Assembly (NCBI RefSeq): GCF_057098645.1
Contig: NZ_CM169472.1
Reading direction: 5' to 3' (one strand)
Length of the DNA: 64,000 nt
Positions 61,601 through 64,000 of this stretch are shown here, piece by piece. Made by a program: the position numbers. Each line of letters begins with the position of its first letter. Position 1 is the stretch's first letter.

Positions 61601-64000
61601 CTGGTATCCGGACTTTCTGCCAGGAGAGATAACAGGCACGGGGACGCTCCTCGGTACGCCCATTGGGCATCTCCCGCTTAATGAACAATCCGCCACCATC
61701 CAGCTCGTCCAGCAATCGCCCTATTTGCAGCTCTCCGGCTGTACCTTTAGCGTGGAAGAAGAAGTTGCCTTTGGGCCAGAAAATCTGTGTCTTGCTGAAA
61801 AAGAGATTATGGCGAGGATTGATGCCGCCCTGACTCTGACCGAGTGCCAGCCGTTGCGCCATCGTCACCCGGCAACACTCTCTGGTGGAGAGACACAGCG
61901 CGTGGTCATCGCCTGCGCCATCGCGATGCAGCCAAAACTATTAATTCTTGATGAAGCCTTTAGCCGCCTGACGCCGCAGGCCAGCGAAATGCTGTTGCAG
62001 CGCTTACAACACTGGGCGTTTGAACGTGGTTCGCTGATTATTCTTTTTGAACGTCATCGCACACCTTTCCTGAACTACTGCCAGCAAGCGTGGCAATTGC
62101 AAAACGGAGCGCTCCAGCCACTATGTTAACGTTAAATCAGATATCTTATCGCTGGCCTGGCGCGGCAACGGATTGTCTTTGCGACATTTCTCTGCAACTC
62201 AAACAAGGTGAATGGTTGGCGTTGACCGGTGACAATGGCGCAGGGAAATCGACGCTGTTACGAGTAATGGCAGGTCTTCTTACGCCCACAGCCGGTACGG
62301 TTATGCTGCAACAACAGGCGATGAAAAACCTGAAAAACCGCCAGCGCGCGGCAAAGATTGGCGTACTGTTTCAGGAAGCGGAAAACCAACTTTTTCACAG
62401 CACCGTCGCTGACGAGATCGCATTTGGTTTGAAACTGCAAAAATGCCCGGCGGATGAAATCACTCAACGTACCCATGCTGCCCTACAATGTTGTCAGTTA
62501 GCAGACACTGCCAGCGCGCACCCGTTGGATCTGCATAGTGCGCAGCGACGGATGGTCGCCGTCGCCTGCCTGGAAGCACTCTCTCCGCCACTATTGCTGC
62601 TGGACGAGCCGAGTCGGGATTTTGACGAAAATTGGTTGAGCGTGTTTGAAAACTGGCTGGAGAAGTGCCGCCAGCGAGGCACGAGCGTCGTAGCAATCAG
62701 TCATGACGCCGCATTTACCCGGCGTCATTTCTCTCGTGTGGTGCGACTGGAAGATGGTCTAATCAGGATCATTAATCCACCAGACGATATTCACCCGTAG
62801 CGGTCATCATTAAGGTCAAATTTGCAGGCAGACTCTCTTCCAGCACCCGGCGAACATTCGGCCCGTCGGTACGGTCATAAAAAGCTTCTGCGTCTGCCAG
62901 CGATAACCCTCCCGCCAGCTTGCGCCCCACCAGTCGTTCCCGCAACGCAGTAGCTGGCGCATTGATAAAGATCGAGAAATCACAAAATTGCGCAAGCTGG
63001 CACCACTTCTCGTCGTCCAGCAACAACCAGTTTCCTTCAACGATGACGAGTGGTGCGGTAACGTGCAACGCATCTTCAACAGGATCATGCTTTTGTCGAT
63101 CATACTGCGGCCACGTACAATCCCCTTCCACGACCTGGCGCAGATTTTCCGCCAGTTTCGCTACGTCAAATGTCTCTGGTGCGCCTTTGAAGGGGCGCAA
63201 TTGATGCGCATCCAGCCAGCTATTGTAATGGTGAAAACCATCCATCGGCAGCGTCTGAATAGCGGGCAGTTCCGGGTCTTGTTGCGCGAGATATTCCCAG
63301 AAGGTGGTTAGGGTAGATTTACCCGTCCCCGGCGGAGCGCAAAGAAAAACCACGGTTCGGCGCTGCGGATTTACCGTCTGTAAGGCCGCCAGCATACGCA
63401 GCAACGGTTTATGCACGCGTTCTATCTCTTCATCATGGTACTGCGCTTGCACGTTCAGCCCATTCACCGTTAATTCAATTTTCACGGCGTTAATTCCTTT
63501 AAGGTGGTCGTTACTGCCAGCGTCAGCGCCGTTTTGACCATTCCGCTAAAACGCGCCTCTGACCAGACGGCGAAATCGGCGAACTTCATCGCTTTCAACG
63601 CGTCATAGAGCATCGCATTGCGGGTTATGCTATTGACGTTGCTGATAAAATCCCAGGTCATGTCATCGGCAAATCCGGGCGCTTCATCCTGTTCGTTCAG
63701 GTAATGCCAGAACTGGGAAAAATGAGTGATATCGGCGTACAGCCATTTATCCATTTTCCCCAGCGCATAAATCAAACGCAGCGCAACATCAATATCGTCA
63801 AGCGGGCCGCTTTGGGCAAGTAACGGCTTCACTGCATATTCCACGATCTCTTCATCGTTATCGACAAACAGCGACGGCAGAAACTGGCGTATTCCCTGGA
63901 GCAAAATAGAATGCGCAGTTTTCATAAATGAAAATAAATTGTCCTGTGCATCCAGTTGCTCAAGCACATCATCTTCTGTCAGCGTCGCCATTGGTCTTCC

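What the first reader, a model, noticed from the sequence alone, without database searches (positions are those of the whole stretch)
62772..62800. 29-bp convergent overlap between the ECF A' gene and yggC
The last 10 codons of the A' ATPase overlap the last codons of yggC on the opposite strand, with no room for a terminator. This is unusual for convergent genes and may mark the right-hand insertion junction.
Basis: seen in the sequence. Interest (0 to 1): 0.3.

Follow-up and report, generated by a model that had tools for sequence, protein, structure and literature searches.

The report
Old seam between two gene modules
The last codons of an ECF-transporter ATPase gene really do overlap the end of the opposite-strand gene yggC by 29 bases, but this is an old, neutral-looking seam between two gene blocks that many enterobacteria share, so it is ordinary.

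Summary
The A' ATPase gene (62123-62800, +) and yggC (62772-63485, -) overlap by 29 bp, and 3,319 of 5,426 complete E. coli genomes carry this junction. Every sampled genome with the ECF block next to yggC has an overlap. This covers Escherichia, Salmonella, Citrobacter, Silvania, Superficieibacter and Phytobacter, with lengths of 11 to 92 bp, always in the same phase.

Where yggC is absent (ECF next to tktA, in the C. freundii complex and K. pasteurii), A' is 6-7 codons shorter than in E. coli. A spacer with a canonical bidirectional terminator follows it. ECF-specific DNA ends about 8 bp before the yggC stop. The A' tail is therefore read from neighbouring DNA until the first chance stop codon.

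The length is what chance gives: median read-in is 36 nt in this phase. The phase is the commonest one for convergent overlaps.

The insertion-junction idea is only partly right. The seam is ancient, and no repeats or mobility genes flank the block. Against K-12, homology breaks at about 63,022, inside yggC, because the K-12 yggC 3' third is a divergent allele. Two Escherichia lineages lost ECF by internal deletions that left the overlap intact.

No intrinsic terminator is present. Rho-dependent termination and mutually antisense 3' ends are inferred, not shown. Interest is low.

The parts
59724..62800 (+). ECF block: PCC-domain protein (59724-60155), S component (60178-60756), T component (60757-61464), ATPase A (61452-62129) and ATPase A' (62123-62800). 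The genes are tightly packed: S and T abut, T and A overlap by 13 bp, A and A' by 7 bp.
   Evidence: The families hit are PF03479, PF12822/NF045596, PF02361, PF00005 and TIGR04520/04521; the equivalog matches fall below their curated cut-offs.
62123..62800 (+). A' ATPase CDS of 225 aa. It has Walker A, Walker B and the H-loop, but a degenerate signature motif (LHSAQ).
62772..63485 (-). yggC CDS of 237 aa, a nucleoside/nucleotide-kinase family protein. Its start overlaps fumE by 4 bp.
   Evidence: NF006742 matched over 1-237 of 237, 524 bits against a cut-off of 402.
62772..62800 (.). The 29-bp convergent overlap, in phase 123:132. This DNA is yggC coding sequence, so it belongs to the ygg module; A' borrows it for its last 9 codons and stop.
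62757..62774 (.). Seam between modules. The last DNA that is homologous between ECF|yggC and ECF|tktA contexts is the A' codons RLEDG-L; the yggC stop (62772-62774) follows.
   Evidence: Alignment.
62703..62728 (.). Perfect 9-bp inverted repeat (ATGACGCCG, 8-nt loop, CGGCGTCAT) inside the A' H-loop codons, 44 nt downstream of the yggC stop. Folding energy is -17.7 kcal/mol on the - strand. Its function is uncertain.
   Evidence: The same hairpin is also present in the Citrobacter ECF|tktA context, which argues against a role specific to yggC.
62861..62960 (+). C-rich, G-poor stretch (C/G up to 1.78) in the RNA downstream of the A' stop. It is a candidate Rho-loading region; this is inferred.
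   Evidence: window-wide 95th percentile is 1.67.
62592..62691 (-). C-rich, G-poor stretch (C/G up to 2.15) in the RNA downstream of the yggC stop. It is a candidate Rho-loading region; this is inferred.
   Evidence: window-wide 99th percentile is 2.09.
63008..63035 (.). Right-hand homology breakpoint between this ECF+ haplotype and the K-12 ECF- haplotype, at yggC codons about 150-160. Identity falls from about 98% to about 60% towards the yggC 3' end.
59574..59597 (.). Left-hand end of homology with K-12, in the epd upstream region. It includes the palindrome GTGGAATTTATTCCAC (59582-59597).

Best explanation
The overlap is a passive seam between two gene modules, and this part of the account is shown. 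One module is the five-gene ECF block (PCC-S-T-A-A'). The other is the cmt-ygg block, which ends with fumE-yggC. They abut tail to tail with no spacer. ECF-specific DNA stops about 8 bp before the yggC stop codon. The A' reading frame therefore runs on into the antisense strand of yggC and ends at the first in-frame stop it meets. This is the stop-codon-displacement origin of convergent overlaps. The borrowed tail is not needed for the ATPase core: homologues end anywhere from 214 to 229 aa, and the position of the stop has drifted among genera, giving overlaps of 11 to 92 bp. The rest is inferred. With no room for an intrinsic terminator, both transcription units must end inside the opposing gene. 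Rho most likely acts on the untranslated C-rich RNA just past each stop codon. If both units are expressed, their 3' ends would then be mutually complementary. No evidence shows that this complementarity is used for regulation.
For: -: all 16 intact ECF+ loci with yggC adjacent overlap, by 29, 44, 26, 41, 68, 92 or 11 bp. One search adds Salmonella at 32 bp. All lengths are congruent to 2 mod 3.
- in the ECF|tktA context A' is 218-219 aa. A 53- or 161-bp spacer follows, holding a canonical bidirectional hairpin terminator. Folding energies are -13.5 kcal/mol on the A' strand and -20 kcal/mol on the tktA strand in Citrobacter, and -18.2 kcal/mol on the A' strand in K. pasteurii.
- DNA homology between the two contexts ends after the codons RLExG.
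- the tail is hypervariable, and every family member lacks positions of about 235-279 of TIGR04521.
- the overlap length equals the chance expectation.
- PMC2174442: phase 123:132 is the commonest for convergent overlaps, a stop-mutation model fits them, and only 20% of the genes in E. coli convergent overlaps have a predicted rho-independent terminator.
- no terminator-like site near the overlap.
- C/G ratios of 1.78 and 2.15 just downstream of the two stops.
Against: - No transcript data were available, so Rho dependence and the existence of overlapping 3' ends are unproven.
- The overlap persists in at least six genera. A stop could in principle arise in the few codons before yggC, so some selection to keep the overlap cannot be excluded.
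- The E. coli tail NPPDDIHP still aligns to the canonical ABC C-terminal segment (TIGR04521 position 231). It may therefore not be entirely dispensable.
- A very stable hairpin (62703-62728) with some covariation lies 44 nt past the yggC stop. It could be a functional 3'-end element.
Confidence: 0.78

Rival explanations
1. The overlap is the right-hand junction of a horizontally acquired ECF island inserted into a K-12-like epd-yggC backbone.
For: - The ECF block is present in 61% and absent in 39% of complete E. coli genomes.
- The overlapped 29 bp are yggC (backbone) sequence, and ECF-specific DNA begins right after the yggC stop in Citrobacter ECF+ against ECF- comparisons.
- The ECF block has slightly higher GC, 0.53-0.59 against 0.48-0.53 in the flanks.
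Against: - Against K-12 the homology break is at about 63,022, inside yggC.
- The ECF+ yggC allele follows the species tree: 95% identity to E. albertii, 89% to E. whittamii and 70% to Citrobacter. The K-12 3' third is about 60% identical to everything sampled, so K-12 carries the odd allele.
- The seam is shared across genera.
- There are no flanking direct repeats, integrase or tRNA.
- Two Escherichia lineages became ECF- by different internal deletions, of window 59,812-62,561 and 59,748-62,551, and kept the A' 3' end and the overlap.
Confidence: 0.12
2. The overlap is maintained by selection as an antisense or transcriptional-interference device, like an excludon. It would make expression of the ECF operon and of the cmt-ygg operon mutually antagonistic.
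For: - The overlap is conserved in the same phase in all sampled ECF|yggC genomes.
- No terminator is present.
- A stable hairpin is conserved in Escherichia and Citrobacter, with one compensatory change and G-U pairs that hold only on the yggC-sense strand.
- Antisense crosstalk between the E. coli arfA and mscL genes is reported (PMC10070815; title and abstract as listed).
Against: - Overlap length and tail sequence vary freely (11-92 bp), as expected for drift.
- The phase is fixed simply because the junction is homologous.
- The hairpin lies in strongly constrained H-loop codons and is also present where yggC is absent.
- The covariation support is modest, and the structure was derived from one of the aligned sequences.
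- No expression data were available.
Confidence: 0.08
3. The overlap is an annotation or sequencing artefact, and the true A' stop or yggC stop lies elsewhere.
For: A' homologues of 214-219 aa exist. Long convergent overlaps are often 3'-extension errors (PMC2478687).
Against: - There is no in-frame stop before 62798.
- The junction is found in 3,319 genomes.
- YggC matches its equivalog model end to end.
- The short A' variants come from a different genomic context without yggC.
Confidence: 0.02

Closest known systems
Convergent (tail-to-tail) overlapping gene pairs of prokaryotes that arise by stop-codon mutation or displacement (Lillo & Krakauer 2007, PMC2174442; Palleja et al. 2008, PMC2478687)
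   Same: Both genes are real. The phase is 123:132, the commonest for convergent overlaps of 5 nt or more. The length fits a chance-stop model. The overlap is conserved across species. No rho-independent terminator is present, as for about 80% of the genes in the 58 convergent overlaps reported in E. coli.
   Different: At 29 bp it is longer than the common 4-bp type; the other two overlaps in this window, yqfG/yqfH and scpC/srsR, are 4 bp. A natural control exists here: the same operon without the overlap, followed by a terminator.
The same ECF operon in the epd|ECF|tktA context (C. freundii complex L061/L062, K. pasteurii L065/L066)
   Same: The five genes are orthologous at 72-75% A' identity, sit at the same position next to epd, and have a convergent downstream neighbour.
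   Different: A' stops 6-7 codons earlier. A 53- or 161-bp spacer follows, carrying a canonical bidirectional hairpin terminator shared with tktA. There is no overlap.
Overlapping convergent transcription units with antisense crosstalk. Examples are E. coli arfA/mscL (PMC10070815, abstract only) and the Listeria 'excludon' concept, which is cited from my own knowledge.
   Same: Convergent genes whose 3' regions are complementary, which gives the potential for mutual interference.
   Different: In those systems overlapping transcripts and regulatory effects were measured. Here nothing beyond the DNA arrangement is known.
Group I (dedicated) ECF transporters with the S-T-A-A' gene set
   Same: S (PF12822, nearest to the CD3073 family NF045596), T (CbiQ-like) and two ABC ATPases are encoded in one operon.
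   Different: All scores fall below the equivalog cut-offs. Both ATPases lack the roughly 45-aa C-terminal domain of TIGR04520/04521. A' has a degenerate signature motif. A PCC-domain gene leads the operon. The substrate is unknown, and no paper in the searched library links yggC with an ECF transporter.

Membership tests
Convergent overlapping gene pair (stop-displacement type) | Both partners are genuine genes whose 3' ends are supported by homology | tested here: met
   YggC matches NF006742 over 1-237 of 237 at 524 bits, and A' matches TIGR04521 to residue 222 of 225. PGAP annotation agrees.
Convergent overlapping gene pair (stop-displacement type) | [quoted passage not shown] | tested here: met
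   overlap in Escherichia spp., Salmonella, Citrobacter spp., Silvania, Superficieibacter, Phytobacter and UBA5654.
Convergent overlapping gene pair (stop-displacement type) | The overlapped tail of one partner is an extension relative to homologues that do not overlap | tested here: met
   A' is 214-219 aa where yggC is absent and 221-235 aa where it is adjacent.
Convergent overlapping gene pair (stop-displacement type) | The length is compatible with the chance spacing of stops in that antisense phase | tested here: met
   median 36 nt, and P(>=29) is 0.65, for 40 long ORFs of the window.
Mobile genomic-island insertion junction | Presence/absence polymorphism of the block | tested here: met
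   the block is present in 3,317 of 5,426 genomes.
Mobile genomic-island insertion junction | The end of island-specific DNA coincides with the feature | tested here: inconclusive
   It coincides in Citrobacter ECF+/ECF- comparisons and in the ECF|yggC against ECF|tktA comparison. It does not coincide in E. coli against K-12, where the break is at about 63,022.
Mobile genomic-island insertion junction | Flanking direct repeats or att sites, a tRNA target, or integrase/transposase genes | tested here: not met
   no repeat pair brackets the block; no mobility genes between epd and yggC.
Mobile genomic-island insertion junction | Marked compositional difference from the flanks | tested here: not met
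   GC is 0.53-0.59 in the block against 0.48-0.53 in the flanks, a mild shift concentrated in the membrane-protein genes.
Bidirectional intrinsic terminator between convergent genes | A GC-rich hairpin flanked by an A-tract and a T-tract between or just after the two stops | tested here: not met
   One search finds none near 62,772-62,800. The hairpin at 62703-62728 has no U-tract on the yggC strand and lies upstream of the A' stop. The feature is met in the ECF|tktA context.
Excludon-like antisense-overlapping operons | Long overlapping transcripts with reciprocal expression effects | not testable with these tools
   No transcriptome data were available. Only the DNA arrangement and the C-rich stretches are known.
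Rho-dependent termination of both units | C-rich, G-poor untranslated RNA downstream of the stop, and 3' ends sensitive to bicyclomycin | tested here: inconclusive
   The composition criterion is met (C/G of 1.78 and 2.15, at or above the 95th and 99th percentiles of the window). Rho sensitivity cannot be tested here.

The most novel reading that the evidence does not exclude
The spacer-less, terminator-less tail-to-tail junction has been kept for the whole history of the ECF|yggC arrangement. It may work as a reciprocal switch. Transcription of the ECF operon would run antisense through yggC-fumE, and transcription of yggC-fumE would run antisense through the ECF operon. Uptake of the unknown ECF substrate and the cmt-ygg sugar/polyol pathway would then be mutually exclusive. 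YggC is listed as a predicted sugar/polyol kinase in PMC3223725. The conserved hairpin at 62703-62728 would define or stabilise the yggC mRNA 3' end.
Probability: 0.08. Interest if true: 0.45.

Novelty: new member of a known kind. Interest (0 to 1): 0.17.

Why it matters
The practical value is in annotation and comparative genomics. The case shows that a 29-bp convergent overlap can be real and old without having any special function. It also shows that an "island edge" inferred from one reference genome can be misleading. Here the K-12 comparison places the break inside yggC, because K-12 itself carries a divergent yggC 3' end. The locus offers a clean natural control for studying how convergent operons terminate without a terminator: the same operon occurs both with a terminator and without one.

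Tried and rejected
- Intrinsic-terminator scan of 59,300-64,000. It found nothing near the overlap. The only hit on the yggC strand (62354-62338) is weak: -10.5 kcal/mol, z = -0.4. It lies in the invariant KNRQRA codons.
- Folding of the two 3' regions as a whole. They are no more stable than shuffled sequence (z = -1.4 and -0.1).
- The hairpin at 62703-62728 as a yggC 3' element. It is locally very stable (z = -5.3) with some covariation. I downgraded it because it sits in H-loop codons and is also present in Citrobacter operons that have no yggC neighbour.
- Rfam scan of 59,000-64,000 at E <= 1. No match.
- Search for repeats bracketing the ECF block. None found.
- Literature searches for yggC with ECF transporter, and for CD3073. 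Nothing relevant.
- Simple-deletion origin of the K-12 haplotype. I rejected it because the K-12 yggC 3' third is about 60% identical to all alleles sampled.
- Treating the Phytobacter tail (GKIAADGTPDEVLTR, 11-bp overlap) as proof of the ancestral state. This is kept only as an inference. The E. coli tail also aligns to the model, but that stretch is antisense to the conserved YggC GEYR motif, so the similarity may be fortuitous.

Full report
**Observation**

The window is identical to E. coli O145 RM9872 (H1). On the + strand an ORF ends with TAG at 62798-62800. On the - strand yggC ends with TAA at 62774-62772. The shared stretch, 62772-62800, is 29 bp.

PGAP annotates exactly these ends here and in two divergent E. 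coli lineages at about 95% identity. A 90-bp probe across the junction hits 3,319 of 5,426 complete E. coli genomes, always once. Homology supports both 3' ends. YggC matches its equivalog model NF006742 end to end (1-237 of 237). The ATPase aligns to the ECF ATPase models up to residue 222-224 of 225.

The locus reads as follows:
- epd (-)
- PCC-domain protein, ECF S, ECF T, ATPase A and ATPase A' (all +)
- yggC, fumE and glpX (-)

**Is it unusual?**

Only mildly. The codon positions pair 1:1, 2:3 and 3:2, which is phase 123:132. Lillo & Krakauer (PMC2174442) report the following:
- 58 convergent overlaps in E. coli;
- 123:132 as the commonest phase for convergent overlaps of 5 nt or more (49%);
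- a good fit to a stop-codon-mutation model;
- a predicted rho-independent terminator for only 20% of the genes in these overlaps.

I counted 12 convergent pairs in this window: 11 in its first 50 kb plus A'/yggC (window 50-57 kb was not surveyed). Three of them overlap, by 4, 4 and 29 bp. For 40 long ORFs of the window, a convergent reader entering in this phase runs a median of 36 nt before the first stop, and P(>=29) is 0.65. The length is therefore what chance gives once no stop precedes the neighbour.

**Related loci**

A scan of species-representative genomes with YggC returned 56 loci. I mapped the window proteins onto them and extended each gene to its stop. The ECF block lies between epd and yggC in E. 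albertii, E. whittamii, six Citrobacter species, Silvania, C. koseri, two Superficieibacter, an Enterobacteriaceae MAG and Phytobacter. Every one of these loci has a convergent A'/yggC overlap.

| Taxon | Overlap (bp) |
|---|---|
| Escherichia | 29 |
| Citrobacter | 44 |
| Silvania | 26 |
| Superficieibacter | 41 |
| C. koseri | 68 |
| UBA5654 (MAG) | 92 |
| Phytobacter | 11 |
| Salmonella Djakarta | 32 |

All lengths are congruent to 2 mod 3, so the junction is homologous and old (alignment).

**A natural control**

A' homologues vary in length only after the motif RLExG-L, from 214 to 229 aa. The short forms (218-219 aa) come from a third context, epd|ECF|tktA, in the C. freundii complex and K. 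pasteurii. There the whole cmt-ygg block, yggC included, is missing.

In that context A' has its own early stop. A 53- or 161-bp spacer follows, carrying a textbook bidirectional terminator, an A-tract, then CGGGCCGC, a four-base loop, GCGACCCG, then a T-tract. Its folding energy is -13.5 and -20 kcal/mol on the two strands in Citrobacter and -18.2 kcal/mol in K. pasteurii.

DNA homology between the two contexts ends right after the RLExG codons, at about window 62,765. That is roughly 8 bp before the yggC stop. The 29 bp are therefore yggC-module DNA that A' borrows for its tail, and the overlap is the seam between the two modules.

**The insertion-junction idea**

At the level of genera the seam is a module boundary. 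In Citrobacter, ECF+ and ECF- sequences stay alike through yggC and diverge right after its stop. It is not, however, the edge of a recent insertion into a K-12-like backbone.

Against K-12, identity is about 98% through fumE and yggC codons 26-145. It then falls to about 60% for the 3' third of yggC, with the break at about window 63,022.

The ECF+ allele of that third follows the species tree: 95% identity to E. albertii, 89% to E. whittamii and about 70% to Citrobacter. The K-12 allele is about 60% identical to every homologue sampled. The one exception is another ECF- Escherichia, at 89.6%. K-12, not this strain, carries the odd sequence.

Two Escherichia lineages lost ECF by different internal deletions, of window 59,812-62,561 and 59,748-62,551. 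Both kept the A' 3' end and the overlap. No direct repeats, tRNA gene or mobility genes flank the block, and the GC shift is mild.

I did not establish which arrangement is ancestral: ECF|yggC, ECF|tktA or ECF-. The Phytobacter locus has about 33 more nt at the seam and a canonical ABC tail, GKIAADGTPDEVLTR. This suggests that a small deletion pulled the A' frame into yggC in the other genera, but that is an inference.

**How it most likely works**

The structural part is shown. There is no spacer, the tail is borrowed and dispensable-looking, and the stop position has drifted.

The rest is inferred. No intrinsic terminator is present, and the 3' regions as a whole fold no better than shuffled sequence. 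Each transcript must therefore end inside the opposing gene.

The RNA just past each stop is C-rich and G-poor. On the + strand C/G reaches 1.78 at 62,861-62,960. On the - strand it reaches 2.15 at 62,592-62,691. These values are at or above the window's 95th and 99th percentiles, which is compatible with Rho loading once translation stops. If both operons are on, their 3' ends would be complementary.

A perfect 9-bp hairpin at 62703-62728 lies 44 nt past the yggC stop (-17.7 kcal/mol, z = -5.3). It is kept in Escherichia and Citrobacter with one compensatory change, and some G-U pairs hold only on the yggC strand (88.9% of cells paired, 2 of 500 shuffles as high). It sits in constrained H-loop codons and is also present in Citrobacter operons without yggC. 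I therefore treat it as a lead and not as an element.

**Comparison with what is known, and verdict**

This is a further example of a convergent overlap of the stop-displacement kind. It is conserved across genera and has a useful natural control. It fails the tests for a mobile-island junction and for a bidirectional terminator. An excludon-like role cannot be tested here.

No paper in the searched library links yggC with an ECF transporter, and the one paper that contains "CD3073" is unrelated. Rfam finds nothing at the locus.

Interest is low. The most novel reading that remains open is reciprocal antisense control of the ECF and cmt-ygg operons, at a probability of about 0.08.

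Noticed in passing
window 62772-63022 (yggC codons ~156-237) vs L002 2738-2990: The K-12-type (ECF-) yggC 3' third is only about 60% nt identical to every sampled homologue, including ECF+ E. 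coli. The exception is one other ECF- Escherichia (L008, 89.6%). The 5' two-thirds of the gene are about 94-98% identical. This looks like a mosaic allele from an unknown donor.
   Followed up: partly
epd-tktA interval: window 59353-64000; L002; L061/L062; L065/L066; L063: At least three arrangements of this interval coexist across Enterobacteriaceae and within genera: epd|ECF|ygg-cmt, epd|ygg-cmt and epd|ECF|tktA. This looks like a long-lived modular presence/absence polymorphism.
   Followed up: partly
L007 and L003 (Escherichia sp. E1V33 and MOD1-EC7003): Two independent internal deletions of the ECF block, lacking window 59,812-62,561 and 59,748-62,551. Both leave an A' 3' remnant that still overlaps yggC.
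   Followed up: yes
window 59502-59598 (epd-PCC intergenic region); K-12 L002 2690-2737: The motif GTGGAATAAA is repeated at 59505-59514, and it forms a perfect palindrome, GTGGAATTTATTCCAC, at 59582-59597. ECF- spacers of several genera carry TTATTCCAG-N26-CTGGAATAA right after the yggC stop. This may be an operator or a recombination scar.
   Followed up: no
window 62123-62800 and 61452-62129: A' has a degenerate ABC signature (LHSAQ) while A keeps LSGGE. Both ATPases lack the roughly 45-aa C-terminal domain of the ECF ATPase models. The S component is nearest to the uncharacterised CD3073 family, below the cut-off. The substrate is unknown.
   Followed up: partly
window 62914-62925 and 62990-63001: A perfect 12-nt inverted repeat (GCCAGCTTGCGC / GCGCAAGCTGGC) lies inside yggC, 115-200 nt downstream of the A' stop. 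About 0.4 such pairs are expected by chance in the region.
   Followed up: no
window ~40850-50000+ (L067): A P4-like satellite prophage: primase-helicase, Icd-like protein, ogr/Delta zinc finger, Psu polarity suppression protein and a DEAD/DEAH helicase, next to argO.
   Followed up: no
window 32030-38291 (L067): PGAP marks scpA as frameshifted, and meaB and srsR as carrying internal stops, in this strain. scpC and srsR overlap convergently by 4 bp, as do yqfG and yqfH at 4752-4755.
   Followed up: no
L050 1-884 (Buttiauxella sp. B2): PCC and ECF-S homologues (71% and 83% identity) lie about 5 kb upstream of fumE instead of next to yggC. The ECF block therefore occupies a different position in this genus.
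   Followed up: no
P0038, P0043, P0049 (279-aa A' variants): Some A' homologues are 279 aa, with a long low-complexity tail after RLENGRL. They may be stop-loss read-through into the downstream region; I did not check where they are encoded.
   Followed up: no
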